From: Eledone cirrhosa
Taxonomy: Eukaryota
Assembly (NCBI GenBank): GCA_964016885.1
Contig: OZ024743.1
Coordinates: forward strand, 247,318,001-247,382,000
Direction of reading: 5' to 3'
DNA: 64,000 bases
This document shows, in pieces, positions 7,050 through 30,889 of this stretch. Numbering within the stretch: position 1 is the stretch's first letter; the number at the start of each line of letters is the position of its first letter. Position numbers and translations under genes: made by a program. Under the pieces are notes generated by a model. It was given only the letters and a program-made list of their open reading frames with translations, was not told the DNA's origin and did not search any database.

Positions 7050-10000
7050 ATAATATCAGCTTACGCACCCCAATCAGGGCTGCCAGACGAACTTAAGGAT
7101 AGGTTTTACGAGTCCCTAATGCACACTACTGCTCTAACAGACGACAATGACTTCCTAATCATCGCAGGAGATTTTAACGGACACATAGGTAAACACTGCA
7201 ATGGCTTCAATAGAGTACATGGAGGCCATGGGGTTGGCACAAGAAATGAGGAAGGATTCAGACTTCTAGAATTCTGCGACGCCAATGACATGTCGATATG
7301 TAACACAAACTTTAAAAGACCCGACAACCACCTGATCACCTATAGATCAGGGGAGCACTCTAGTCAGATAGATTTTATCCTCATCAGAGGACGTGACAGA
7401 TGGACGGTCGTAAACACAAAAGCCTTCCCTAGTGAGGAATGTACATCCCAACATAGCTTAGTTGTCAGCGACCTCACAGTCAGAACTAGACGAACCTGGA
7501 AACAGAGGCCAACCTGGAGAAGAAAGATCTGGAAGCTGAAAGACCCCTCAACCAGTAACAGATTTAAAGATATTTTACTCAACGCCTACGACAATAAAGA
7601 AGAACAGATAGAGACATTCAATGTAGAAGAGAACTGGGAGTTCCTAAAAAATAACTTACTCGAGGCGACGGATGAGGTTTGTGGCTGGAGTAAGACCTCA
7701 AGCAGGAGGAGAGTGAATTGGTGGTGGAACAATAAGGTAGATGAGGAAGTTAAGGCCAAGAGACAGGCATGGAAAGAATGGAAGAACGGGGGGAGCAGGG
7801 TACATTACATAGAGACCAAGAGGGAAGCTAGGTGACAAGTATACTTAGCTAGGAGGGAAGCAGAGGATAGAAAATTCAAGCATGTTTTGCAATGTGAGGA
7901 CCAGAAACAGGAGGTGTTCAAGATTTCGAGGCAGTGTGTCAGAGAGAATTGTGATGTCATTGGAGAGAAGTGTATCCGGAATGATAAAGGTGAGCTTGCC
8001 CTCACAAGTGCTGAGAAGAAAGATGCATGGAAGAGTCATTATGATTGATTACTAAATGACGAGAATGCATGGGAAGAAGAGACCCTACCCCAAGTAGACC
8101 CTATAGAGGGGCCAGCAGTACAAGTCAGCAGCAACGTAGTAAGTAAGGCAATCAAAGATATGAAGATGGGGAAGGCAACCGGTCCATCGGGTATAGCTGC
8201 CGAGATGCTGAAGGCATCTGGGTCTGTAGGTCACACTATAACCACACGTATTGTTAACCAAGTAATACTAGAAGGTGTCATACCAAAAGATTGGTGCAGT
8301 AGCATCATTGTCAACTGCTGCAAAGGTAAAGGTGATGCACTAGATAGAGGAAACTATAGAGGTATAAAGCTGATGGACTAGGTCATGAAAGTAACAGAAA
8401 GAGTTATAGCACAGTTGATTAGGGACCGGGTGAAACTAGACGAGATGCAATTTGGGTTTGTACCGGGAAGAGGCACCACTGATGCCCTCTTCCTTGTGAG
8501 GCAGTTACAGGAAAAGTACCTAGCTAAAAGTAAGCCACTCTACCTGGCATTTGTCGACCTTGAGAAAGCCTTTGACAGAGTTCCACGTGCTGTAATCTGG
8601 TGGGCTCTTAGAAAACTAGGAGTAGATGAATGGCTCGTGAAAGCAGTACAAGCCATGTATAGGGGAGCAGTCAGCAAAGTTAGGATTAGCAATGAGTATA
8701 GCGAGGAATTTAGCGTACAGGTTGGGGTCCACCAGGGCTCTGTTCTTAGCCTCCTCCTGTTCATCATAGTCCTGCAGGCAATAATGGAGGAGTTTAAGAC
8801 CGGATGCCCATGGGAACTCCTGTATGCTGATGACCTCGCACTTATAGCTGAATCTATGGTAGAACTAGAGAAGAAATTCCAAACTTGGAAGCAGGGACTA
8901 GAAAGAAAGGGTCTCAAAGTCAACATGACAAAGACTAAGGTCCTTGTAAGTAGACGAGAAAACAGATCCCAGATCCCCTCAGGGAAATGGCCTTGCTCAG
9001 TATGTAGGAAAGGTGAAGGTAGGAACTCCATTCTCTGCCCCAAATGCAAACAATGGGTACACAAGAGATGTAGCGGGATCTCAGGAAGCTTAATTAAGAA
9101 TGTAGGCTTCACATGTAGCAGCTGTGCTGGGACAGCAAGCAGCAAACTGTCACAGGAAACAAGTACCACCAATCTCTGGGAGGGCTCTGTAGAAACAGTA
9201 GACAGCTTCTGCTACCTAGGTGACCGAATTAGCAGCGGAGGTGGGTGTTCAGAAAGTACAATAACTAGGGTAAGAACGTGATGGAAGAAGTTTAGGGAAC
9301 TACTACCACTGCTAGCTGCAAAAGGCTTCTCCCTCAAAATGAAAGGCAGACTGTATGATGCATGTATCCGAACAGTGATGTTGCATGGTAGTGAGACCTG
9401 GGCGCTGAAGGTGGAAGACTTACGTAGATTAGAGAGAAACGAAGCCTGCATGCTCCGATGGATGTGTAACAGTAATATACGTGAACGACAAAGCATAAAT
9501 GAATTGAGAGAGAGACTGAGCATAAGAGGAATCAAATGCTGTGTGCAGGAGAGGCGGTTGCGCTGGTATGAACATGTGATGCGTATGAAGGACGACAGCT
9601 GCATAAAAAGGTGCAGAGCACTAGAAGTCGATGGAAACCGCGGAGTGGGGAGACCCAAGATGACCTGGGATGAGGTGATAAAAGCCGACCTTACCCAACT
9701 ACACCTCTCAAAGACAATGACACACGACCGTGACTTCTGGCGTCACACAGTAATACAGGGTACCCGACCTCCCATGGGTACAAGCTGAAGCATATAGACA
9801 ATATGCCTCCACACACCCCACCGCAAGGTGGTCGTGGAGGTGCCACAGCAAAAAAGCACCCAGCCCACACTGTAAAGTGGACGTGTAGGCGCCACGAAAA
9901 AGCACCCAGCACTCACTGTAAATGAGGTTGGTGTTAGGAAGGGCATCCAGCTGTAGAAATCAAGCCAAATCAGTTCCTGTATGAGCAAGGCATGGTCAGC

Positions 10001-15580: not shown

Positions 15581-15964
15581 TCTATATATCTAAAACAGAG
15601 AATGTCTGTCTGTCTGTCTCCCTAAAACTCGAGAACCTCCGAACCGATTGTTTTCAAACTCTACACATGTAATACTTATGGTCGTGTGAGCGTTTTGAGC
15701 AAAATAATTTCAAATTTTCAATGCCCTAGGGACTGCATTAGGCGATTTAGCGATCTCTCTCTATAATTCTTAGTCTTTCTTTTTAGATAGATACATAGCT
15801 ACGACGTCACGCCCTTATAATATCTGTCTGTATGTCTGGCTGTCTGCATTACGACATTATGACGCTATCTATGTGTGTGTGTGTGTGTATATATATATAT
15901 GTGTTATGTTGATTTAAAACTTCACTATTCACAAGTGTTTTTTAAGCTTCATATCATGTATCTC

Positions 15965-16035
15965 TATTTTATCTGATGAGAACGCAGATATAATCCCATG
16001 TTGATATTTGTTTTTGAAATGCGCATAATAAAATA
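15965..16035 (+). ncRNA. Minimal type I hammerhead ribozyme motif
   Basis: Stem I TATTTTAT/ATAAAATA, core CTGATGA (15973-15979), stem II GAACGCAGATA...TATTTGTTTTT, GAAA (16016-16019), stem III T-GCGC-A with palindromic loop, cleavage triplet AUA. Confidence 0.75.
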
Positions 16036-16069
16036 CTTGGAACTCTTTTAACCATCTTTTGATCTTATA

Positions 16070-16080
16070 TTATATATATA

Positions 16081-16158
<78 letters not shown>
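16070..16158. repeat. (TA)n microsatellite
   Basis: About 44 TA units with one interruption. Confidence 0.95.
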
Positions 16159-16161
<3 letters not shown>

Positions 16162-16244
16162 GGAGGTGAGTTTTATAGTAGTACAATAAAGCAATGCAGA
16201 TATCGATTAAGTAGCACTCTACAGTTTGTAGGACTGGAGTATAA

Positions 16245-16474
16245 ATAATAATATATAAGATCAAAAGATGGTTAAAAGAGTTCCATGTCTTTTATTATGC
16301 GCATTTCAAAAACAAATATCATCATGCAATAACATTTGCGTTTTCGTCAGTTAAAATAGGAATTTTATCTGACGAAAACGCAAATGTTATTGCATGATGA
16401 TATTTGTTTTTGAAATGCGCATAATAAAAGACATGGAACTCTTTTAACCATCTTTTGATCTTATATATTATTAT
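16245..16474. repeat. Near-perfect 113-bp-arm fold-back palindrome with a hammerhead motif on each strand
   Basis: Arms 16245-16357 and 16362-16474, loop AGGA, one mismatch seen near the axis. Confidence 0.92.
16363..16429 (+). ncRNA. Minimal type I hammerhead ribozyme motif (mirror copy on minus strand 16290-16356)
   Basis: TTTTAT-CTGACGA-AAACGCAAAT...ATTTGTTTTT-GAAA-T-GCGC-A-TA-ATAAAA; complete conserved core with all three stems. Confidence 0.78.
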
Positions 16475-16773
16475 ATATATATATATATATATTGGTAAAC
16501 GGAATAGAAAATGCTGACAAATTGTTCACAGTTGAAAAATGGTTTAATTAGGAATAAAAGAGTATTAGTGATTGTATGGGTTAGTATTCAGTTGTGGTTT
16601 TAAGTTTTTACCGGTTGCGCATTTCTAAATGTTTTTCAAAAATAATTTTGAGATAGAGTGTCCGTGTTGTTTGCTCTGATATATATAGTAATAATAATAA
16701 ATTTGAAGACTAAAATCCAAAGAGGGCTCGATAAGGATAAATATATATCAAATATATAAGAACCGTAGAGCAA

Positions 16774-16904
16774 ATATTTATTAAAATAACAGATTAAAGT
16801 TTAAGCAAAGAATCGCTGCTTTCACCCTTAACGGGATAAGATCTCGTTAAGGGTGAAAGCAGCGATTCTTTGCTTAAATTTTAATCTGTTATTTTAATAA
16901 ATAT
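16774..16904. repeat. 64-bp-arm fold-back palindrome centred on a truncated hammerhead
   Basis: Arms 16774-16837 and 16841-16904, loop AAG. The right arm matches 17985-18043, which folds as a hammerhead. Confidence 0.9.
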
Positions 16905-17006
16905 ATATATATATATATATATGCTTTCACCGTATTTTAGACTAAAGGAATTTCTAGCCTGATAGTGGGGTTTATAACCCTCGGAGAAATGGAAAAAGAT
17001 GAGTGT

Positions 17007-17077
17007 TGCCGTACATGGGAGTCGAACCCACATCTTTGGTTATCCAGACCACTGTGCTACCATTACACCAATACACA
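17007..17077 (-). pseudogene. tRNA-like Pol III head (copy 1)
   Basis: Reverse complement of 17394-17464. Confidence 0.6.
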
Positions 17078-17393
17078 TCCCGTCTCCTTCCATTCGAATT
17101 AGAAGCTATAAACTTAGCAAATGAATGATAAACAAGCAAATTATAAATGTAAACATGTAAGTATGTTTTTTGAAACGGTGCGCGAGTTTGAAATTATAAA
17201 TTATAAATTATAAGCTTTCACCGTATTTTAGACTAAAGAAATGTCTAGCCTAATAGTGGGGTTTATAACTCTCGGAGAAATGGAAAAAGATGAGTGTTGC
17301 CGTACATGGGAGTCGAACCCACATTTATAATTTGCTTGTTTATCATTCACTTGCTAAGTTCATAGCTTCTAATTCGAATGGAAGGAGACGGGA

Positions 17394-17464
17394 TGTGTAT
17401 TGGTGTAATGGTAGCACAGTGGTCTGGATAACCAAAGATGTGGGTTCGACTCCCATGTACGGCA
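17394..17464 (+). pseudogene. tRNA-like Pol III head (copy 2); probably not a functional tRNA
   Basis: A-box TGGTGTAATGG, D stem GTGT/GCAC, anticodon arm GTGGT-CTGGATA-ACCAA, T arm GTGGG-TTCGACT-CCCAT, TTTTT terminator ~10 nt downstream. The acceptor stem has 2 terminal mismatches, and the GGA anticodon lacks the long Ser variable arm. Confidence 0.6.
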
Positions 17465-17676
17465 ACACTCATCTTTTTCCATTTCTCCGAGAGTTATAAA
17501 CCCCACTATCAGGCTAGAAATTTCTTTAGTCTAAAATACGGTGAAAGCTTATAATTTCTAATTTCTAATTTCAAACTCGCGCACCGTTTCAAAAAACATG
17601 TTTACATTTATAATTTGCTTGTTTATCATTCACTTGCTAAGTTCATAGCTTCTAATTCGAATGGAAGGAGACGGGG

Positions 17677-17747
17677 TGTGTATTGGTGTAATGGTAGCAC
17701 AGTGGTCTGGATAACCAAAGATGTGGGTTCGACTCCCATGTACGGCA
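17677..17747 (+). pseudogene. tRNA-like Pol III head (copy 3)
   Basis: Same sequence as 17394-17464, 283 bp downstream. Confidence 0.6.
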
Positions 17748-17973
17748 ACACTCATCTTTTTCCATTTCTCCGAGGGTTATAAACCCCACTATCAGGCTAG
17801 AAATTTCTTTAGTCTAAAATACGGTGAAAGCTTATAATTTCTAATTTCTAATTTCAAACTCGCGCACTATTTCAAAAAACATGTTTACATTTATAATTTG
17901 CTTGTTTATATATATATATATATACATATATAGTGTGTAATATTTACTTCTGCGTTCACAGATTGATTTTTTT

Positions 17974-18024
17974 AGTTTCAGAAGATCCCGTTATGGGTGA
18001 AAGCAACGATTCTTTGCTTAAACT
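17974..18024 (+). ncRNA. Type I hammerhead-like motif with one core substitution
   Basis: AGTTT-CAGAAGA (U4A relative to CUGAnGA)-TCCC-GTTAT-GGGT-GAAA-GCAA...TTGC-TT-AAACT; stems I, II and III all pair. Confidence 0.55.
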
Positions 18025-18207
18025 TTAATCTGTTATTTTAATATATATATATATATAATTATATATTCGTGTACAGATATTTTTGCATACACAATAACAA
18101 AATATAAACAAACGTATTTATTTCACGAGGCTCGATAAAGATAAATATATATCAAATATATCAGAACCCTAGAGCAAATTCCGAGCAACGCCGGGCCATT
18201 CTGCTAG

Positions 18208-18732
18208 TTTTATCTAAAATGACTTTTTTATAGTAAACTGTAGTAAACAACCATGACGACGACAACCACGATGACGTCATATTGTATATGAGTGTGTATG
18301 TGTCTGTGTGTTTGCAAGTTTGTTACATACGTTTGGCCTCAGAGAATTAAACACACACACACACACATTTACACATACATATAGACAATTAAACACACAC
18401 ACACATCTACACATACATATGTGATAACAGACAGGTGTGCGTAAATGTGTCTGTCTTAGTATATGTATGTGAGTGTGTGTGAGCAACAATTTATTCATTT
18501 GGGCAACAACAAAAAATGACTCAATGCATATTGTTTACCCTAAGGTGCTTCAAGATTGACAGATTTTCATTTCTAAATTCTATTATCATAACAATTTTTA
18601 TATTTTTTTTTTCTAAGATATAGATATTTTGAAATAATTATGAGAAGAAAAAAAAACATATCTTCATATTTATTGTTTACTAATCTGAATAAGAACAGCA
18701 GTAACCCGGGCAACGCTGGGTAATTCAGCTAG
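18208..18732 (+). mobile_element. Non-autonomous Helitron H3
   Basis: Starts right after the H2 CTAG with a degenerate TTTTATCTAAAA. Ends with hairpin CCCGGGCAACGCTGGG and TTCAGCTAG (CTAG 18729-18732). Confidence 0.65.
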
Positions 18733-19060
18733 TCTATCTATATAATACTAAAAGTCTGTGATTGCTTGCTTGCTTGCTTGCTTGTCTGTAATGTAATACA
18801 GCCAAAAAGGGTGCATAGTGGGAAAATACTTTGAAAGGAAGTTGTGCCTGAAATGGGAATACAAATGGACAAAACAAGTTTCGCGTAAATCGGACAACGG
18901 AGTCCCGAGATATGGGGTTTTTCTGGGTACCTTCATAAACAAAGAGAGAGAAAGATAGAGAGGAAGAGATAGTGGTTTCGACAGAGTATATTGAAAGAGA
19001 GACATACAGAGAGGGAGAGGAAGAAGAGTAGAATGGAAGAGAGCTGATGGTGGTGTTGTG
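18733..19060 (+). mobile_element. Non-autonomous Helitron H4 (5' part; 3' end not found)
   Basis: TCTATCTATATAATACTAAAA plus (TTGC)n directly after the H3 CTAG. Confidence 0.55.
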
Positions 19061-19067
19061 TGTATAT

Positions 19068-19238
19068 ATATCACAGAAAAAAGAGAATCAGTCTTGCGAC
19101 GAAGGGAATTTGTTGGACATATTACAAATGTCTCTCGGGCGACCAGATCGTGATTGAGCTGGTCACCCCGAGAAACATTTGTAATATGTCCAATAAATTC
19201 CCTTCGTCGCAACACTGATTCTCTTTTTTCTGTGATAT
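19068..19238. repeat. ~80-bp-arm fold-back palindrome centred on hammerhead stem II
   Basis: Arms 19068-19146 and 19159-19238 with a few mismatches. The right arm has GAAA-CAT-TTGTAAT-ATG-TC (19172-19190), the 3' half of a hammerhead with a GUC site. Confidence 0.88.
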
Positions 19239-19346
19239 CATACTCTGCTCCACGAGGGCATCAAGTGCTCATACGGCCTACCGCATACGGACGCTTTAAG
19301 CATCCAACACCAATTATATATATATATATAATTGTGGTATAATTGT

Positions 19347-19516
19347 GCAAAGTGGTCGTGGAGGTGCCACGGCAAAAAAGCACCCAGCACTCACTGTAAA
19401 TGAGGTTGGTGTTAGGAAGGGCATCCAGCTGTAGAAATCAAGCCAGAATCAGTTCCCGTCCCACCCTTGCAAGCAGGGAAAAGTGGACGTAAAATGAAAT
19501 GATGAATGATGATGAT
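19347..19516 (+). mobile_element. Solo RTE 3' UTR (5'-truncated) with (GAT)n tail
   Basis: Closely similar to parts of 9823-9980, followed by the terminal motif and GATGAT. Confidence 0.85.
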
Positions 19517-19910
19517 ATATATATATATGAGTGTGTGTGTATATATATATATGTGTATGTGTCTATGACCAGTGTATATAGATCACAGACACCCGGTTAC
19601 TTACATATATGTGCCATTGTCCTGTGTTCCCCCTTCTATCGGTATGTTTACTTCGTTTTTTCCCTTTTTCCTTTTTTTCTTCTTCCATTTTTCTTTCTTC
19701 CTCTCTCTCTCCACTATCACTTCCTTCCCTCATGGCCTTTTGATAGATAAAAGGCCATGGGCGCGCTACGGATCGATGTTCTGTTTTAAGCGTCGAAATA
19801 TCCGTAGTAAACAGCTGACGAAGGGAAACTTTTCTTCTCATGTTTGTGTCCCGATTACCTTCTAATACTTCGTTTTCAGTAACCACACAGCCAGCCTCGC
19901 CTTCTAACCC

Positions 19911-19911
<1 letters not shown>

Positions 19912-19997
<86 letters not shown>
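19912..19997. repeat. (TA)n microsatellite
   Basis: About 43 TA units with one interruption. Confidence 0.95.
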
Positions 19998-20001
<4 letters not shown>

Positions 20002-20398
20002 AAGGTTAAACAAGGTTCAATGAATAAATCAAAGAATGAGTTTTACAATAGATTGGAAGCACTCCACAATATGGTTTTCCGGAGTTATTAATATTAATTC
20101 AAAATATTGATGAGGACGTACTGTTGAAGATAGCTCAGTACCTCTGAAATATGTATAATAAAATATACTTGATCACACGAATGTCTATTTTTGTTAATAT
20201 TTTCACATTATATACATGTCTGTGTATATTTTAATTATTTAAAAATTATTTTTAAGTGAACATGATTTTTTTTAAATATTTTGAAGTGAACGTGACCCAA
20301 TGGGTGGTTTAGTACGTACTTAAAATTAAAAATAAAATCAATGCCGGCATGGTAAATCGACAGAAACTACTGAAAAGGTATCTCGGATATTTCAAGAA

Positions 20399-20710
20399 AT
20401 CTCGCCATCAATTTACGTGCGTTCGGCTGCCAGTCCAGGCTCTGCTGCCCGCCAGACGGAAGGGGGCAAACTGTCCAAGTATCGGTCACTCTCTGACAGG
20501 TTTGAAGTAGAGCTTGTTGCAATGGAAACTTAAGGCGGCCTTGGCCCCCGTAGAACAATCCTGCTCACTGCTATCGGAGTGAAGTTGGCTGCCGGCAGAT
20601 GCGGGGCCCACGAGGTGAAGTGGCTGTTCCAGCACGTCTCTCTCGCCGTCTTCCCGAATAATGTATTCAACATCCTGTCAGCCGGGACCAAGAGACGAAG
20701 AGTAAATTAG
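20399..20710 (+). mobile_element. CRE-clade non-LTR retrotransposon 3' remnant (restriction-like endonuclease C-terminus)
   Basis: Translation SAARQTEGGKLSKYRSLSDRFEVELVAMET*GGLGP...IGVKLA...EVKWLFQHVSLAVFPNNVFNIL matches the CRE pattern AAxxAExxKxxKY...ETxGxxG...LxQRxSxAxQRGNA. GC-rich island in AT-rich context. Confidence 0.75.
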
Positions 20711-21971
20711 TTAAAGGTGGAGGATACTCAACCACTTACACAGTCCAACGAGTTGATTAACTTAGTACTGTATTATACGCAGTAAGAATTGTCAACATAA
20801 TTAAATAAATTATCAAACAAACTGATAACCTGTTTGAATAAAATTTAAAATATACACCCATTTCTGGAGACTTGTGCGTCATAAAAATATATATTCTTTT
20901 ATCTACAACAATAATTTGTTGAATGTTATGGTCAAAGTGATTAGTAAGGATAATCAGTAGAGTGGGTAGGCTATTAATAACCTGTATACACAGGAATAAG
21001 TTAGGAAATGTTAAGAAAGGAGTGGGCGCCACCCAAAATATTAATCATTATTTCTCACGGTACGCTCTCATATTACACTTTTGTTTATAGTTAGTGCATA
21101 AGAGTAAGGGAAGTAACTCTAAACAATAGCTTTTCAAGTTACTTCTATCTTTCATAATAGCTATGAAATATTTAATTTTGCAGAAATAATATTTTAAGTT
21201 ATAAAAAAAAGCAACCTGTGTTCTCGAATAGTCATGCCTAACAAAATACATTTTGTGTAATCAGTAACTGAGTAGATTTGAACACAGAAAGGCTTGATTA
21301 TAAGATAAATAAAAGAGTGAACAATATAAGGTTTCATAACTATGTCGGCAATCGATGTTTATTTTATATTCAAGTAGACATGAGTTACAAGGATTTGTTA
21401 TGAACTTCGGAAATATTATGTTTCTTTTTAATGTAGAAAACATTATGTTTCCTTTTATTATAGAGAGAACAGCTTTACCATTCGTAATTTTTTAATCAAT
21501 AAAATCTCATAAAATAAAATAAGTTTGTTTGTCTTAAGGCGAGGTGATTTCTGATGACTCAGACAATGATTTCCTTTGAAAGACAAGCACATATTTTATC
21601 AGATTCAAGATTGTTTCTTCACTCAGTACAAGAGAAAAAAGACAGTACTGTTACTAGCACATAACAAGTGATGGATTATATCATAAATACACCCTAAATT
21701 CTTTTTAAATGTGACATAAAGGTTAAGGGTAGAGCAGTACTATAGTGTAAATCATTTAGTACAGGGTCCATTGAAAATGTTACTTTTGCTTCTAGGTTAA
21801 TCTGGCTCTGCACGTAATGTATATAGGGGATGATTTTTGGGAGTATGCTGCAAAAGAGCAAGACCAAGAAAGATTTGGGCAAAAGTAGCGAAAGCTAATT
21901 TCAGGATGTTGACTATCACAAAGGAGATGACAAAGGAAAGTGAAAAAAGTAGAGAAACTCTGTTCTGGACA

Positions 21972-22022
21972 GAATTTGTCTAACCCATGCAAGCATGGAA
22001 AATCTGACAAATGATGATGATA
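21972..22022 (+). mobile_element. Extremely truncated RTE 3' terminus
   Basis: GTCTAACCCATGCAAGCATGGAAAATCTGAC plus ATGATGATGA. Confidence 0.6.
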
Positions 22023-22185
22023 ATTAGAATTCCAAAAAATATTATATTTTCAGGTAAAGAGGGAGAAAATTATAGACATATATCAAGTAGAAAAGATAAT
22101 TATTTAATAATTATCTTTAAACAGTCTCTTTGGTAAAAATAAAAAAATACTTGATCATTCTCTTTCTATAAGAACAATTTTGTAA

Positions 22186-22340
22186 CTAGTTTCAGTCATC
22201 TGACTATGGACATGCAGTGACACTGCCTTAGTATTGATCATATCAATCCCAGTATTGGTACTTATTTTTATCAATCTGGTACTTATTTTTATCAATCTCC
22301 TTTTGTCAAAGTACTAATTCATTGGACATAAACATAAACA
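22186..22340 (-). mobile_element. Degenerate SINE-like interspersed repeat (related to 25985-26140)
   Basis: GTTTCAGTCAT...GACT..G..CATGC and CCCAGTA..GGTACTTATTTT are shared with 25985-26140 and with the core of 5664-5844. Confidence 0.5.
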
Positions 22341-22482
22341 GACACAAACACACATATGGTTACATGCACACACACACACACACACAGATATTTAAAAAAA
22401 TTAAAACTAACGTAAGGTCAACAGCTTCAACACAGGTATTTAACTATGAAAAATAGTTTTAAGTTATGCATATAAGTCTCAA

Positions 22483-22518
<36 letters not shown>

Positions 22519-22524
22519 GAAAGA

Positions 22525-23562
22525 GTAATGCATTCTTCTTAGTGAGGCAATTGCAAGAGAATTTCTTAGTAAAAAATAAGCCACAGTATATAGCTTTTGT
22601 TAATCTTGAAAAGAGACCTTTGACAGAGAGCAGTGCAAGCTATATATAGAGGAGCAGTCAACAGATTGAGAGTAGGAAGTGAGTTTAGTGAGGAATTCAA
22701 GGTGCAGGTAGGAATTCCTAAGGATTTGGTTCTCAGCCCACTGCTGTTCATTATAGTTCTCCAGGCCATAACATACAAGTTTAAGACTGGCTGTCCATGG
22801 GAACTTCTTTACGTGGGTGACCTGGTCTTTATAGCTGAATCCATAAAAGAATTAGAGAATAAGCTCTGATAATGAAAACAGAATTAGGATACAAAAGGCA
22901 TGAGAGTAAACTTAGCCAAAACTAAAGTGCTAGAAAGGAGGAAAGAAGACAGGACCTTGATTCCTTCAGGGAAGTGGCTCTGCTCGATCTGTAGAAAAGG
23001 AGTAGACAAAAATTCTATATGATGTACACAATGTAAAGCTTACCTGTAGAAGAGATGTAGTTGGGTAACAGGCAAACTAACAGGATGGGAATACTTTATA
23101 TGTAGAAGATACACAGGGGTAATCAATGTGAAGAGCGTCAATGATATACATTTTTTCCAATCACATAGAGGATCCATAGAAGTGTTAATAGCTTCTGCAA
23201 TCTAGGTGACCTAATCAGCAGCAAATGAGGGTGCTCTGAGAGCATAATAGTTAGAATAAGGCTAGGATGGAAGAAGTTTAAAGAGCTACTCCAATTGTTG
23301 ACAACAAAAGGTTTCTTTCTAGGTGCAAAAAGACGGCTGTATGATGCCTGTGTGTAAAGTGAAAAGCTGCATAGTAGTGAAATGTGCAGTGACTGCGGAG
23401 GACATGTTTAGACTGGAGAGAAATGAAGCAACCATATTTTGTTGTATGTGCAATGTAAATGTGAGAGAAAGGCAGAGCTTAGATGAACTGGGGGAGAAAT
23501 TGGGTTAGTATGCTGTCCAACCCATGCGAGCATGAAAAAATGGATGTAAAAACGATGATGAG
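22525..23562 (+). mobile_element. Older RTE copy (RT, PHD, C-term fragments, 3' tail)
   Basis: QAIYRGAVNRLRVGSEFSEEFKVQVG...SPLLFIIVL...GCPWELLYVGDL, then a GKWLCSICRKG PHD remnant and RLERNEA; collinear with 8480-9530, with stops and frameshifts. Confidence 0.9.
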
Positions 23563-24699
23563 GATATATATATATATATATATATTTAAGTCGTTTGGAA
23601 GCCTCGACAATGCAAATGGGTAAATCTCCGGGTAACAAGGTCCGGTGGTGGAGAGAGAGATGTAAGTGGGTGTACGTTGAGATGCGTGGTGTGTATATTA
23701 TATGAAACAGAAAAAGAAAGAATTATAATAAACTGGACATCTCAATGAAAAGACAGCCAAAGGCATATAAACATAGTTTAACTTATGCCAAAGTCTCTGT
23801 AAAGGGAAATACATGCCAAACTAATGCAAGAAAATTTCACTTACATCTAATCCCTAACTGTAGTTTCTAGAATCAAGAAACAATATTCATTATCTTAATA
23901 AATTAGACAACCAGCCCAGACTTTATCATTATTGAACCAGCGTGGTGTATATAGTTACACACATGCATGGTTTAACCAGTGAGATGAATGAGGCCAATTC
24001 AACTTAAGACAAATACTATGTATTGAAGCCAGGTTGATACTAATGGTAATATGCGTGTGCTTCGTATGTGTATACATTCATTGTATATGTAAAATGCTGA
24101 CTGTTTGATACTGTGTCTTAAAAAAATTTCCACTCTTGCAAATCTAACAACAAATTCTATTGTAACTATACAATGAAAATGAATAATAACATTGTAAATA
24201 AATAATAGATAAGTAATGCTTTTTATCTAAACCTACTTACTGTTGCCCACTAGATAATTTCTACTCCTGCAAGTCGAACAACAAATATTACTCTAAGAAA
24301 ATAATAACATTGTAAATAATCATGACATAAGAATTGTACCTCAACCTATAATATTACATGGTCAAACAACTCCACATACAAAATGTTTTTTTTTAAATTT
24401 AATTGCTTGCTCTACACTAATTTTTTTTTCTATATGAAGTCTATTCTTGAAAACATTTGAAATTGGTAAACTTTGTTCTTTCTCACATTTTCCTGAAGAT
24501 AATAATAATAATTGATAATAAATTATTTCTAGTTGTTTACATATGTATGTACTATTGTAACCGTATTGAAATGAACGTAGACATTTTAAAAATGAATGTA
24601 AGTTGTTAACTTTGGTCTTTTGGCATATTGTATATATATCAGCCTGTTGAGTCATGCTTATAAGCTTTTCATGAGTATCATTGCAGCATAAATGAAGTC

Positions 24700-25745
24700 A
24701 GACCTTTATGCCTTGTTTCCTAAGACACAAGCTGGAAGAGTCACCATTGAGCAAATCCTAGTTATTGAACAAATCATTGAGAAATCAATAGAATTCAACA
24801 ACCCTGAGTACATCACCTTCATTGACTTCACAAAAGCTTTTGACGTGAAACTACCCAAGTTGTGGCAACTCTTAAACAAAACCTCAATTAATAAGAAATA
24901 CATCAATCTACTGAAAGAAACATACACCAACTCAACAGCATATATCAAAACTTATCTACTAAATTGAAGAACATCTTCAAATCTTAGTTATACAGATGAT
25001 CTGGCTATCAGGAGTTACTCTGGAACTGATCTGCAAAACTTTCTAAGTGTACTGACCAACATGCACTAGAGGTTGGCTAACACAATAACATCCAAAATGA
25101 AGTGTATGACAACTGATAAAAACAATGCCAATTTCCAACTCACAAGGAGTTTGTATATCTCAATCACAAACTATCATCTAACAACAATGGAATGGTTGCT
25201 GTGCAGTATCGCATTGCTCTGGGTTGGACAGCTTTCAAGGAACAAAGAAGTGCTAACATCAAAACGAGTTTCTTATCATTTGAAGATTAAGATCTTTGAC
25301 ACTTACACCCTACCAGCTGTGTTATATGGTCTTCATTGTGTTAACTGGACAGCAAGGTCACTTCAGAAGCTGTCTACATTCCAGAACCACATCATGAGAC
25401 TTATGACTAACAAACGACTCAGTGATCATATCTCTATCAATGCGCTACTCAACATTACCAAGCTTAAACCAATCACAATAGTTATCAATTCAAGAGTACT
25501 TAAACTCTATGGTCATATCAAAATATCAACGCGTGGTGTAAGTTATGCCTAGAAAGAAAGTTAGCCGGTAAGAGAAGCAGTGGTCAACAGCCAAAACAGT
25601 GGCTTGTTAATGTCATCCTATGGACTGGACTTGACCATTACTCTTTAAACTCTGCTGGTTGTGATCAAACTTTGTGGAGAAGAATATCTCATGCTATGCA
25701 CAGTCTGCAACAGGTGGAGTGAGTGTCAAGGAAGAAGTAGGAAGA
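24700..25745 (+). mobile_element. Degenerate non-LTR retrotransposon of a third RTE-like family (RT to 3' end)
   Basis: TQAGR..IEQILVIEQIIEKSIEFN..ITFIDFTKAFD, YTDDLA, LKIKIFDTYTLPAVLYG, LKLYGHI; ends in a GAAGAAG-type tail. Confidence 0.8.
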
Positions 25746-25984
25746 TATATATATATATATATATATATATGTAGCAATCACACAGCCTTTTTGCCTTTTC
25801 CAGGTACAAAAATCTGCTCCTCAAGGATCTAATCACTGTCAAGTTATGCATTTTATCATTGCTTTAAATGTCACATGACTAAGGGGTACTCACTTGAGAT
25901 TCATTTAATAAAATTACAAATAAAGCTGAATTAACAGAAGCTGATTGATTGATAAAGTTTTTGAAACATGTTCTTAGCTATCTC

Positions 25985-26140
25985 TTTTATTTGTTTCAGT
26001 CATTAGACTGTGACCATGCTGGTGCACGGCTTTAAAGGAATTTAGTCAATTATATCAACCTCAGTACCTATTTTTTCGAGTGCAGAACTTTTTTTCAACC
26101 TATTTTATTGACCTGCTAAGTTATGGTAAATAAACACTGA
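25985..26140 (-). mobile_element. Degenerate SINE-like interspersed repeat
   Basis: Similar to 22186-22340. Confidence 0.5.
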
Positions 26141-26199
26141 CATACACACACACATATGAATATATATTTATCATCCTTCTTACCACCTCCCATCCAATT

Positions 26200-26452
26200 C
26201 CCACACCCTTATGATTGAGAAGGCTCTTTACTTGAGTCAATGACCAACAATATCCCTAGTGCCATTATAAAATACATCCAGTATACTTTGTAAAGTGGTT
26301 GGTGTTAGAAAGGGCTTCTAGCCATTGAAACTATGCCAAAGGTAGTTGAGAAAACCTTTCAGTCACGTCACAACAACCACATTAGTGCTGGTACCACAAA
26401 AAAATGCACACAGTATATCCTGTAAAGTGGTGTGAGGAAAGGCATCCATCTG
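26200..26452 (+). mobile_element. Two degenerate RTE UTR-motif copies
   Basis: TGTAAAGTGGTTGGTGTTAGAAAGGGC and TGTAAAGTGGTGTGAGGAAAGGCATCCA; same layout as 10920-11280. Confidence 0.5.
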
Positions 26453-26679
26453 TTGAGAGGGAAACATCAACATTCCTTACTGTAGTGAGTAATTGAGTGT
26501 GCATGTCTTCTCTAATTTTTTATTTATTTTTTTTATTGATTTGTTTTTCATCAATCATATTTATTATATAAATTCCAGTTTCACATTGTTGCTAACAAGT
26601 CAGTGAATAGCTTATCAGATTTTGTACAATTGACCCATAAAGCATTTTCTGTAGGTTTAATTGTACTCTATCTAGCATT

Positions 26680-26925
26680 TCTCTCCTGTCCATCGCTGGG
26701 AAGGTCCTGGCTTGGGTCATGCTCAACCGCCTCATCGCCAACATCTCAGAGGACAACCTGCCTGAGGCCCAGTGTGGGTTCCGCCCAAACTGCAGCATGA
26801 TCGACATGATCTTCTCTGTACGCCAGATGCAGGAGAAGTGTCGAGCAGAACATGGACCTTTTTGCCGTCTTCATAGTCTTGACGAAGGCCTTCGACACTG
26901 TCAACAGGGAGGCCCTCACATACTC
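26680..26925 (+). mobile_element. BovB-like RTE reverse transcriptase fragment
   Basis: LSIAGKVLA..MLNRL...LPEAQCGFRPNCSMIDMIFSVRQMQEKC, then KAFDTVNRE after a frameshift. Confidence 0.85.
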
Positions 26926-26977
26926 TAATCACCTATGACAAATATCACAGCCTTTACAAGAAAATTGACCATAGGCT

Positions 26978-27440
26978 AGATCTTGGTTGTCTATCGTAAA
27001 CAATGATGACATCTTTATTTTAGTTTCCGTCTGCCGTGACCGCGAAGGTGGCTGTGGAGGCCGATCCTTAACTTTCAGATCCGGGGACAGTGGGGGCAGG
27101 GGAAGAGACAGGAGTTGCTTGGGGCAGCTGTTGATGCCTTTCTCCTCCTTTCACGAGCCTCAGTGACCTCTGCCCGTCTCTTCTCTTCAAAAGAGTCTTT
27201 GGCGTGTCTGGTAAGGGCTTGCAACTCAGTCCTGTCCTGAACATGGGACTTGAGTTGTTTTGGGGCGATTCCAGTGTTGTTGATACTGGACTTCATGAAG
27301 TCTTTGAACCTCTTGAGAGGCCTGCCCCGCTTTCATTTCCCCGAACAGAGTTCCCCATACATCAGTTGCTTCGGAAGCCTGTGATCGTCCATCCAGATGA
27401 CATGTCCCACCCATCGAAGTCGGCTCTTCAGTATCATAGC
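26978..27440 (-). mobile_element. BovB-like RTE 3' end with C-terminal zinc-finger remnant
   Basis: RWVGHVIWMDDHRLPKQLMYGEL...RGRPLKRFKD...FPCPHCPR...IGLHSHLRGH, followed by a short 3' UTR. Confidence 0.85.
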
Positions 27441-28050
27441 TTCAACAAGCTGCCTTGCCTGTCTTCATATCTTTGGTTGCCTTACTTATTATACTACCTT
27501 CAACTTGCACTGCTGGTCCCTCTATTGGATCGGTTTGGGGCAGACTATCTTTTTCCCATTTATTCTCCTCATTTAGTAGCCTTTCGTAGTGACACTTCCA
27601 AGCTACCTTCTTATCACCATCAGTGATGGCAAGTACACCATCATTATTATGGACACACTTCTCCCCAACAATATCACGGTTTTCCTTGACCCTTGACACA
27701 TTGTCTTGCAATCCTGAACACCTCACGTTTTTGGTCCTCATGTTGAAGGACATGCTTGAATTTTCCTCTGCTTCCCTTTTTGCAAAGTACACTTGTCTTC
27801 TAGCTTCTCTCCTGGCCACTTGATAGTGTTTTCTACATTCCCCATACTTTCCAAGCCTGCTTTTTGGCCTTGATTGACTCCTCCACCTTACTGTTCCACC
27901 ACCAAATTACTCTCCTCCTGCCTATAGGTCTGCTCCAGCCACAGATTTCATCTGTTGCCTTCAGCAAGTTAACTTTCAGGAATTCCCACTGTTCCTCTAT
28001 ATTGTACGTCTCTAATTGCTTTTCCTTACTGTCAAAAGCATCAAGTAATA
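27441..28050 (-). mobile_element. RTE fragment (EN-RT linker) of the 7050-10090 family
   Basis: REARRQVYFAKREAE...DIVGEKCVHNNDG...HYERLLNEENKWEKDSLPQTDPIEGPAVQV...DMKTGKA is collinear with 7570-8180. Confidence 0.9.
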
Positions 28051-28059
28051 TATGTGTGT

Positions 28060-28545
28060 GTGTGTATTGTTATATTTGTGTCTAGGTCATGTTGCCCATA
28101 CTGCCAATAAAAAAAGATTTGCACTATTTGAATTTTACTTCACCTTTATTTGTTAGTTTGTCACACATTATGTGACCTCCTCAATGACTTTTTTGTGTTC
28201 CTCTTCTTTCTGGACTTATTTTGTTTACTCCATTTAGTCTTTCTGTGGTACATTTCCCTGCCTGCGCCTGTGTATGTATCTTTGGTATGAGTATGTGTAT
28301 TCGTGTGTGTGCATGTGGGTTTGTATATTTTTCTGGGTTTTTTTTTCTCTTTATTATTCTGTCCTCAGTTGTTAGGTTATGGGTAGGTGTTACACCTCTT
28401 GGGGTAGCTTTGACAAATATGACACTCTGCTACTTTTGGTTGTCATACCATGAACTGGCCTTCCCTATCTTCCTCTTTGTCCTTTCTATACTATTCATGA
28501 TTTGATCTTGTATAGTGAACACATCCCATCCCATTTGTGTCATTC
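28060..28545 (-). mobile_element. Penelope-like element remnant, inverted partial copy
   Basis: 28405-28530 is the reverse complement of ~29390-29510, and 28065-28270 of ~30070-30295 (diverged, with an internal deletion). Confidence 0.7.
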
Positions 28546-28759
28546 TCTAAGACCATGTAGAAAGATTGAGCAGGTCGACCAGAGCCATACAGACCCTCAA
28601 AAACCCTGATCAGATGAGAAAAATGAGCATACATACAGTAGGATCAGGTATTAAAACTTCTCTAAAGAGCCACATGTGGCCAACTTGTTCATGGTATGGT
28701 GGGGCAATACTTAGTAGAGAGCTCCATAGACCTAACCATGTACCCTTGTTATGTAGACA

Positions 28760-28975
28760 ATAACCCTTTAGCATTTACACTACTCTATATATACTATTGT
28801 ATTTTTGTGGTAATGGTTTTATCTTACATAATTATTTCACATAATAGCAAATCTATGAGATTTTGATTTTATTTATTTTGAGAACAATACCTTAACATCA
28901 GTATGAGTGACCAGTTACGGCCAGTTTGAGCAGAAAGAGGTGTGAGAATTCTGGCCGGATACACTAAAGGGTTAA
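28760..28975. mobile_element. piggyBac-type MITE
   Basis: TIRs TAACCCTTTAG / CTAAAGGGTTAA, with TTAA on the right and ATAA on the left. Confidence 0.65.
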
Positions 28976-28984
28976 TATAGTGGT

Positions 28985-30295
28985 AAATGCACTCCCACAA
29001 GAGAATAATCATGAACCTGAACTAAAACCTAACACCATGGAGAGCATCCAGCAAATAGTTAACTCTATTCACCTGAGTATTAAGGTAACAACAGACTCTG
29101 GAAACTAAAAATGACAAAGCCCAAATCCTCTACTCGTATTATGTCAAATCCATGACCTCCAAGTACCCGATACACCGGAGCTCAGCTATCTCAGATCATA
29201 CTATTCAATATCTAGATAGTGGCTCTAGTAATGGTGATGAAAAACATGTTCCATGTGCGCAATCCAACAGAGTTAGAAAGACACATACAACACTTCATCT
29301 ACAACATGCAGTTCTCTGGATACAACCAAAGTTACAGGATCAGTGAGTACAAAAGAGCAAAGGTAAAATTCAAAACCATTATAAAGAATGGGATGTGCAC
29401 ATTATACAAGAAAAAATCATGGAATAGTATAGAAATGAATAAAAGGAAGATAGGGAAGGCCAACTCATGGTATGACAACCAAAAATACCAGAATGTCATG
29501 TTCGTCAATACTATCCCCATGCAACATTCCATATCAATTTAGGAGGGACTTAAATAAACTGAACTTAAAAATTAAAGTGGTAGAAAAGCCAGGAACTCAC
29601 ACAAAATGTCATTTTAAGAAAACTCCCTGTACTGATAGAAACTATAGTGCAAGTAAACTGCAAAACTAGGAATACAGGCTATAGGATAAGGTCTACAGTG
29701 GATAGTACAGAAACATGACAACATATATAGGAGTTAGAATTAAAGAACACTGGCAAGAACTCAGAGGAGAAAAAAATTGTCAGTGCTATACCATCATGTC
29801 AAACTAGAAGAGGGAGGCTCAATAGATAACATAGAAGTAAAGACCCTATCCACACAGAACTGACACAACACATAGATAAATTAAAGAGGCTACACCTATA
29901 ATAGAGGGTTGATCAAGCCTCAACAGAAAACACAAATGGAGTAACATCCCCACACAACAACCTAATGACTGCGGACAGAATAATACACATAAGAAAGAAG
30001 AAAAAAACGTAGGAAAACACAGAGAGAAACACACAAGAACACACACATACTCATGACACACACAAAGGTGCAGACAGGAAAATGCACCACAGAAAGATGA
30101 AATGAAATAAACAAAATAAGACCAGAAAGAAGAGGAGGAACAGAGGAAAATAAAAAGTAATTGAAGAGGTCACAGAGGGTGTGACGAAAGCACTTTGATG
30201 AACTGACTAATAACTAATAATAAAGCTGAAGGGAAAAATCAAACAGTGCGAGTTTTTTTATTGGCAATATGACCAGACTCAAATATAACAATATC
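28985..30295 (+). mobile_element. Penelope-like retroelement remnant (RT C-terminus, linker, decayed GIY-YIG region, 3' pLTR-like tail)
   Basis: YSYYVKSMTSKYPIHRSSAIS, MQFSGYNQSYR, SWYDNQKYQNVMFVNTIP, KIKVVEKPG and RIKEHW resemble PLE motifs. The tail carries a decayed hammerhead-like TTGAAGA-GGTCAC...GTGAC-GAAA at 30161-30189. Confidence 0.7.
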
Positions 30296-30453
30296 TGTTT
30301 TATCCCACGACTGCAAGAATTATGCAAAAACAAATATATACATATGTGTTTATATATATACTCTCAAAAGCGTGAACCTAATAAACTACCATTTGTACTG
30401 CCTCTCTGTTTTTTGTTCCTGTCTAATATTTAACTATATATATATATATATAT

Positions 30454-30648
30454 ATAGGAACAAGTAAGACCCCGACGGCTGAGCTCAAGCCGTTTTGACG
30501 GCTAATTCTGAGTCCAGAATTAGCCTTCGAAACGGCTTGAGCTCAGCCGTCGGGGTCTTACTTGTTCCTATTACCCACTCTACTACCCTAAGTATTGAGT
30601 ATTTTGGTGCGTTATGGTCCACCTGGTTCCTTACCACATTTCCTTCGT
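30454..30648. repeat. 57-bp-arm fold-back palindrome (30454-30571) centred on hammerhead stem II, plus a unique tail, inside (TA)n
   Basis: Arms 30454-30510 and 30515-30571, loop AGTC. The right arm has GAAA-CGGCT-TGAGCTC-AGCCG-TC (30529-30551), i.e. stem III with a GUC site. Confidence 0.9.
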
Positions 30649-30680
<32 letters not shown>

Positions 30681-30796
30681 GTGTAATGAATTCCTTTACA
30701 ATGAAATTAGCTCAAAGAAAGAAATATTTCTGAGCCGTGTAAAACATTTAAATATAAATTAATATATATATATATATATAAACACAATAAATAAAA

Positions 30797-30865
30797 TTCA
30801 TTCTGATGATTGAAGACAGACGTATGTGCCAAGCTCGTCTGTCTTCGTGAAACTTGGTAAATGAA
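30797..30865 (+). ncRNA. Type I hammerhead ribozyme motif
   Basis: Stem I TTCATT/AATGAA, CTGATGA (30803-30809), 11-bp stem II GAAGACAGACG/CGTCTGTCTTC, GAAA (30849-30852), C-TTG-G, GUA site. The closing pair 10.1-11.1 is a U-U mismatch. Confidence 0.72.
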
Positions 30866-30889
30866 ATAATTATCTTGTTGTTTATTACA

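What the first reader, a model, noticed from the sequence alone, without database searches (positions are those of the whole stretch)
16245..30648. Four unrelated fold-back palindromes all have their symmetry axis on a hammerhead ribozyme
Seen: long inverted repeats at 16245-16474, 16774-16904, 19068-19238 and 30454-30571 share no obvious primary sequence, yet each lies beside a TA tract and is centred on a hammerhead. In 19068 and 30454 the axis is the predicted stem II loop, so each arm keeps the GAAA/stem III/GUC half (with a substitution on the left arms) while CUGAnGA/stem I is replaced by the mirror image. In 16774 the axis falls in the core. In 16245 it lies just 5' of stem I. Known: Penelope-like elements (PLEs) and non-LTR retrozymes carry type I hammerheads, and PLE insertions often show inverted terminal repeats. 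Inference: cDNA stalls in the ribozyme fold, snaps back on its own hairpin and self-primes second-strand synthesis. That would make the ribozyme a structural determinant of integration for a multi-family system of tiny non-autonomous, (TA)n-targeting retroelements. I do not know of this axis rule being described.
Basis: partly seen in the sequence, partly recalled or inferred. Interest (0 to 1): 0.85.

Follow-up and report, generated by a model that had tools for sequence, protein, structure and literature searches.

The report
Head-to-head Penelope retrotransposon insertions
The four palindromes are short, head-to-head insertions of four Hydra-type Penelope-like retrotransposon families in TA repeats, likely made when both cut DNA ends each prime their own reverse transcript; the fold-back point falls in a predicted hammerhead ribozyme as a hotspot in two families but not as a general rule.

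Summary
They are not stand-alone tiny elements: each is the 5'-truncated 3' end of a Hydra-clade Penelope-like element (C-terminal GIY-YIG 0.9-2.2 kb upstream; RT seen for A and B). The 'axis rule' is partial. Family D has a sharp stop inside stem II (about 10x hazard), B a weaker one, but A and C stop mainly 26-60 nt upstream of the ribozyme; both arm ends lie in the ribozyme in 4/20, 7/19 and 5/22 junctions. A stronger rule emerged: 97 of 101 classifiable junctions join one tail-bearing arm to one tail-less arm, and the tail arm is shorter in 33 versus longer in 7. One cDNA copying itself cannot give that without extra trimming. Best reading: twin priming at the element's two RT start sites, with short snap-back only as a joining step. 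Inverted copies, one-sided tails and self-priming are in print; this pairing asymmetry was not found in my searches.

The parts
16159..16359 (-). Family A tail-bearing arm (tail about 16159-16245; full type I hammerhead, core at 16350-16344)
16362..16470 (+). Family A tail-less arm; hammerhead core CTGACGA 16369-16375, GAAA 16412, palindromic stem III, predicted cut after 16423
15907..16071 (+). Separate tail-less family A copy starting at the family's upstream 5'-end hotspot; full hammerhead, core at 15973
16066..16158 (.). (TA)n target tract left of insertion A
16688..16837 (-). Family B tail-bearing arm, 5' end at -14 from G12
16838..16904 (+). Family B tail-less arm, 5' end at -17 inside the variant core; GAAA at 16855
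19068..19150 (-). Family C tail-less arm, 5' end at -16
19156..19316 (+). Family C tail-bearing arm; GAAA 19172, stem III 19176-19181, predicted cut after 19183, stem I 3' strand 19184-19190, tail to about 19316
30454..30510 (-). Family D tail-less arm, 5' end at -14
30511..30648 (+). Family D tail-bearing arm, 5' end at the -18 hotspot in stem II; GAAA 30529, predicted cut after 30551, tail 30572-30648

Best explanation
These are 5'-truncated insertions of four Hydra-clade Penelope-like retrotransposons in (TA)n, each made of one tail-bearing and one tail-less arm joined head to head, likely by twin priming: the endonuclease would nick both strands, one end would prime reverse transcription at the tail start site and the other at the internal start site of the same uncleaved RNA, and the two cDNA 3' ends would be joined by end joining. 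The internally primed cDNA would lead and run to a family-specific stop; the tail-primed one would trail and often stop earlier. A palindrome results when both stop near the same place. The hammerhead is often at the axis because it lies right next to the priming sites and, in D and B, contains the stop; a few nucleotides of snap-back at that stop can bridge the join. Shown: anatomy, parents, counts. Inferred: all steps of synthesis and joining, and ribozyme folding or activity.
For: 97 of 101 classifiable junctions are tail + tail-less (23 of 124 unclassifiable); 17 of 18 in the systematic sample; 20 of 23 in independently fetched long D copies. Tail arm shorter by 10 nt or more in 33, longer in 7, of 97; 13 share 12 nt or less; no TA tract inside any junction; both outer flanks TA in 74 of 97. 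Upstream hotspots in A and C are reached by 18 of 32 tail-less versus 4 of 32 tail arms (p = 5e-4). B arm ends pile at the internal site (5 of 51, hazard 3.3 vs 0.8 per 100 nt, post hoc). Both arms are of one subfamily (35 of 45 identical at diagnostic columns vs 38% between insertions). Junctions are heterogeneous: 51 blunt, 18 microhomology, 55 with insertions. 3 of 248 ends lie at the predicted cleavage sites. In vitro, a Penelope-like protein nicks and extends both strands from two RT start sites that define the tail and uses uncleaved RNA (PMC11167929).
Against: 57 of 97 junctions are near-symmetric and fit snap-back equally well. Overlapping arms from one RNA need strand displacement, untested. 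The exact -18/-14 junction recurs in D and short snap-back stubs exist (5 of 103 sites). A, C and most D loci were top search hits, not a random sample; arm ends come from BLAST boundaries (a few nt error, ends near +36 in D may be divergence artefacts). The in vitro enzyme is from another clade and showed no start-site difference between strands, so the coupling of sites is my inference.
Confidence: 0.58

Rival explanations
1. One cDNA (or an antisense RNA) self-primes into a hairpin intermediate, and the endonuclease then trims one arm at the internal site, leaving the tail on either arm.
For: Gives exactly one tail per insertion and same-subfamily arms. Self-priming and endonuclease resolution of the tail are proposed in PMC3846280 and PMC8557442. 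Some junctions use the two strands of an RNA stem as microhomology (L029, L043, L082).
Against: Needs trimming of the first strand in at least 33 of 97 cases and long-range priming into the tail for the 13 nearly non-overlapping pairs; in vitro the tail matches two RT start sites on target-primed products.
Confidence: 0.24
2. One reading: a target-primed cDNA stalls in the ribozyme, snaps back and copies itself, so the ribozyme fixes the axis in all families.
For: D stop in stem II: 22 of 42 arms, hazard 4.65 vs 0.44 per 100 nt; B core/stem I 2.9 vs 0.74; 21 of 53 TA-adjacent palindromes in or at a hammerhead; snap-back stubs.
Against: Cannot place a tail on the copied arm (33 of 97). Main stops of A and C are outside the ribozyme; B whole-ribozyme hazard 1.05 vs 0.75 outside. 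1 of 17 long palindromes at a ribozyme.
Confidence: 0.08
3. Symmetric two-tailed or one-tailed palindromes were made first and later reshaped by deletion or gene conversion.
For: Palindromes are unstable (general knowledge); some arms show internal deletions (L083, L047).
Against: Requires one-sided deletions that spare the tail-less arm up to its hotspot in a third of copies whose arms match the reference copies at mostly 85-100%.
Confidence: 0.06
4. The palindromes are MITE-like DNA elements or master palindromes amplified as units.
For: 39 of 40 top D hits had an inverted mate at nearly the same axis.
Against: That query contained the loop. The tail lies on either side of the asymmetric loop, axes vary, and parents code for RT and GIY-YIG.
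Confidence: 0.03

Closest known systems
Hydra clade of C-terminal-endonuclease Penelope-like elements (PMC8557442)
   Same: C-terminal GIY-YIG with CxCx5C linker, no CCHH, CxxC and CxH around E and N, DKT in RT, (TA)n targets, hammerhead near the 3' end, inverted 5'-truncated copy with one-sided tail.
   Different: Tails here are about 65-90 nt rather than 30-40; 3' non-coding regions are 0.9-2.2 kb; B and D cores are variant; abundance is high (about 30 endonuclease remnants per 1.28 Mb) where the paper reports few families.
Inverted pseudo-LTRs of Adineta vaga Penelope and the self-priming proposal (PMC3846280)
   Same: Head-to-head inverted repeat, palindrome at the junction, optional tail on one arm.
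   Different: That paper infers self-priming on an antisense template; the tail/arm-length asymmetry here favours two priming events.
PAc Poseidon element in vitro (PMC11167929)
   Same: AT-rich target, two RT start sites defining the tail, both strands extended, uncleaved RNA used.
   Different: Different clade; inverted insertions are not discussed in the passages read.
L1 twin priming and dual priming (PMC2837659)
   Same: Two target ends each prime a cDNA; inverted pieces joined at their 5' ends with little microhomology.
   Different: L1's internal site is variable and arms usually do not overlap; here both sites are fixed and overlap is common, giving palindromes.
Non-LTR retrozymes and PLE minimal hammerheads (PMC4209133; bioRxiv 10.64898/2026.07.22.740005)
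   Same: Type I hammerheads, palindromic stem III (A, C), U3-A8 core variant (D sister subfamily), opposite-strand ribozyme pairs 100-700 bp apart.
   Different: Retrozymes are tandem direct repeats with a ribozyme in each unit; these four are inverted truncations of coding parents.

Membership tests
Hydra-clade PLE | C-terminal GIY-YIG downstream of RT, upstream of the 3' repeat | tested here: met
   EN on the same strand 0.9-2.2 kb upstream for A, B, C, D; RT then EN in L156 (A) and L241 (B); RT not seen for C, D
Hydra-clade PLE | CxCx5C linker, no CCHH between GIY and YIG | tested here: met
   A, B, C parents; D parent is truncated before the linker
Hydra-clade PLE | CxxC and CxH either side of conserved E and N | tested here: met
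   A, B, D parents; C with one Cys changed in L227 but intact in L047
Hydra-clade PLE | DKT motif in RT | tested here: met
   B parent L241 only
Hydra-clade PLE | RWK motif near the N terminus | tested here: inconclusive
   RWK/RWR seen in other loci (L142, L152, L157) but parents of A-D are truncated before it
Hydra-clade PLE | (TA)n insertion preference | tested here: met
   both flanks TA in 74, one in 21, none in 2 of 97
Hydra-clade PLE | RT phylogeny within the clade | not tested
   no tree built
Type I hammerhead | Three-helix topology around core and NUH | tested here: met
   relaxed descriptor matches one or both parents of all four (7 of 8 references; 23 real vs 2 shuffled hits per 400 kb); D folds so unconstrained, z -2.2; A, B, C do not
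Type I hammerhead | Canonical CUGAnGA core | tested here: not met
   met in A and part of C; B has CAGAAGA with H17 = U; D has CTGAGAA (25 of 25) or TTGAAAA (39 of 48), both sets chosen by similarity to a query
Type I hammerhead | Self-cleavage | not testable with these tools
   needs in vitro transcription
Non-LTR retrozyme | Tandem direct repeats with a full ribozyme per unit, no coding parent needed | tested here: not met
   no such tandem at these loci; copies are inverted truncations

The most novel reading that the evidence does not exclude
Twin priming is the normal, coupled integration route of Hydra-clade Penelope-like elements (one protein dimer, one RNA, two fixed start sites, two target ends), and in some families the hammerhead, with a decayed core, has become a programmed reverse-transcription stop whose short cDNA snap-back bridges the two cDNAs, filling the genome with on the order of 100,000 palindromes.
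Probability: 0.3. Interest if true: 0.72.

Novelty: new member of a known kind. Interest (0 to 1): 0.45.

Why it matters
How Penelope-like elements make their inverted repeats and one-sided tail is an open question that the papers read leave to self-priming or endonuclease resolution. This genome holds very many short insertions (69 palindromes in 1.28 Mb sampled), and the one-tail pairing plus arm asymmetry turns the question into a direct test with the existing in vitro system. It also warns that such palindromes score as microRNA hairpins or look like MITEs.

Tried and rejected
Rfam scan: no hammerhead family, only sub-threshold miRNA hairpin matches. Own-genome DNA search for B returned nothing although B is abundant. 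Pattern search for CUGAnGA upstream of D gave 14 hits with no shared parent, mostly junction or decay artefacts. I first judged C to lack a ribozyme, then found the register through a relative. The idea that C's arm is antisense GIY coding sequence was dropped: L047 is a junction into the parent. Ribozyme cleavage as the source of arm ends: 3 of 248. Spliced-exon origin of the D hotspot: no shared upstream sequence among copies. Pfam does not recognise these endonucleases. Earlier-findings look-ups were empty. only re-confirmed upstream C copies. One C junction (L189) may belong to another repeat inside the reference and was left in the count of 22.
Full report
Observation. The window lies in a 3.0 Gb AT-rich genome. 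Each has a one-sided extension to the next (TA)n tract, so the insertions are A 16159-16470, B about 16688-16904, C 19068-19316 and D 30454-30648. Rfam reports no hammerhead.

Parents. Own-genome searches and 128 systematically placed 10-kb stretches (1.28 Mb; ten of them adjoin the window) gave longer copies. Each family continues upstream into a GIY-YIG endonuclease on the same strand: A 1008 and 1343 nt (L081, L156), B 1055 (L241), C 2172 (L227), D 924 (L195). L156 and L241 carry RT before it; the linker is CxCx5C, CCHH is absent, CxxC and CxH flank E and N, and L241 has DKT. These are the Hydra-clade marks in PMC8557442 (passages), which also gives (TA)n targeting, inverted 5'-truncated copies and a tail often at one end; its supplement notes an inverted copy on one Hydra family. 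No tree was built. So the four are truncated insertions of coding elements, not a separate class of tiny elements.

Ribozymes. A relaxed type I descriptor (23 real versus 2 shuffled hits in 400 kb) matches 7 of 8 natural references, covering all four families. A and C have canonical cores and palindromic stem III (C also has a U4C variant). D has a three-helix fold unconstrained (z -2.2) with core TTGAAAA in a sister subfamily (39 of 48), the U3-A8 variant known from PMC4209133 (passages), but CTGAGAA in the window's own subfamily (25 of 25); both sets were picked by similarity to a query. B has CAGAAGA and H17 = U. A, B and C do not fold as hammerheads without constraint. Activity is untested.

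The axis rule. I mapped 124 head-to-head junctions (A 20, B 19, C 22, D 63). Both arm ends lie inside the ribozyme in 4 of 20, 7 of 19, 5 of 22 and 61 of 63; the D figure is inflated because about 40 loci were chosen with queries that held the loop and long D copies fall outside the junction filter. In the systematic sample D still shows a sharp stop: 22 of 42 arms end in the 3' strand of stem II, 4.65 versus 0.44 per 100 nt at risk; B shows 2.9 versus 0.74 at core and proximal stem I but 1.05 versus 0.75 over the whole ribozyme (segments chosen after seeing the data, arms not independent). The main hotspots of A (-112) and C (-103) are about 60 and 26 nt upstream of stem I. Independent of family, the sample holds 69 palindromes, 53 TA-adjacent: 14 have the axis inside a hammerhead, 7 within 10 nt of stem I, 5 further upstream, and 27 have none detected (the descriptor misses some). 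By arm length that is 20 of 36 at 120 nt or less and 1 of 17 above, so much of the coincidence is geometric: the ribozyme sits next to the 3' ends.

A stronger rule. Each family has two fixed 3' ends, with and without a 65-90 nt tail. Of 101 classifiable junctions 97 join one of each, 3 are tail-less pairs and 1 has two tails; 23 were unclassifiable. The same holds in the systematic sample (17 of 18), without the query-selected D loci (63 of 66) and in long D copies (20 of 23 paired; 28 of 52 loci had no partner in view, 1 unscored). The tail arm is shorter by 10 nt or more in 33, longer in 7, within 10 nt in 57; 13 pairs share 12 nt or less. No junction contains a TA tract. Tail-less arms reach the A and C hotspots more often (18 of 32 versus 4 of 32, p = 5e-4). 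Arms match in subfamily (35 of 45 identical versus 38% between insertions). Junctions are blunt (51), microhomologous (18) or carry insertions (55; 15 of the 37 longer ones templated nearby). Only 3 of 248 arm ends fall at predicted cleavage sites.

Mechanism. A target-primed cDNA that copies itself cannot put a tail on the copy if the first strand lacks it. The simplest reading is twin priming as in L1 (PMC2837659, passages), here at two fixed sites on one uncleaved RNA, followed by end joining. This fits PMC11167929 (passages and second half of the main text): both strands are nicked and extended, two RT start sites define the tail, and ribozyme cleavage is not needed. That paper saw no start-site difference between strands, which suits a symmetric (TA)n target but does not show coupling. 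Against me: most junctions are near-symmetric and uninformative; overlap needs strand displacement; and a hairpin intermediate trimmed by the endonuclease can also yield one tail on either arm, so I give it 0.24. Whether the stops are stalls or RNA 5' ends is unresolved; no RNA run was listed.

What is in print. Self-priming from junction palindromes: PMC3846280 (passages). Opposite-strand ribozyme pairs: PMC4209133. Retrozymes as PLE derivatives: bioRxiv 10.64898/2026.07.22.740005 (abstract, introduction, part of methods). bioRxiv 10.1101/2024.12.14.628481 (passages) added nothing specific. Searches found no paper stating an axis-on-ribozyme rule, the tail pairing asymmetry, or twin priming for these elements; the library lacks most subscription papers, figures are not held, and text supplements of PMC11167929 had no matching terms, so older models may cover it.

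Verdict. Real feature, new members of a known clade with a known architecture. The headline rule is a family-specific hotspot; the pairing asymmetry is the part worth following. Interest 0.45.

Noticed in passing
window 16918-17909: A tRNA-containing 283-nt repeat forms a head-to-head plus tandem array inside TA tracts; relatives form TA-adjacent palindromes in L193 and L204. It may be a SINE carried by the same machinery.
   Followed up: partly
window 16480-16680 (minus strand): Fragment resembling a fifth family with a minimal hammerhead of U3-A8 type; seven sampled palindromes of that family mostly have axes 14-48 nt upstream of the core.
   Followed up: partly
window 17930-18180; L090, L110, L202, L237: Family B derivative with a recurrent 5' end near -72 next to TA/GT repeats and, in most, a TA tract inside; 6 of 51 sampled B arms end at -72. 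Could be a true short non-autonomous form.
   Followed up: partly
window 30789-30870: Complete canonical type I hammerhead of another family with a 12-bp stem II, z -3.6.
   Followed up: partly
systematic sample L105-L224, L237-L244: About 30 Hydra-type endonuclease remnants in 1.28 Mb (counted by eye), suggesting tens of thousands genome-wide.
   Followed up: no
L195:4028 (D) and L237 (B) 5'-end hotspots: Both hotspots start at the A of TTAGT, which resembles an initiator and also a splice acceptor (both motifs recalled); PMC4209133 maps a Penelope intron end to the 5' end of helix I.
   Followed up: partly
window 8382-9278: LINE-type reverse transcriptase fragment with a PHD finger directly after the RT core (Pfam RVT_1 and PHD).
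   Followed up: no
window 32150-64000: 25-28 bp satellite with strong strand skew and an apparent higher-order period of about 7.7 kb.
   Followed up: no
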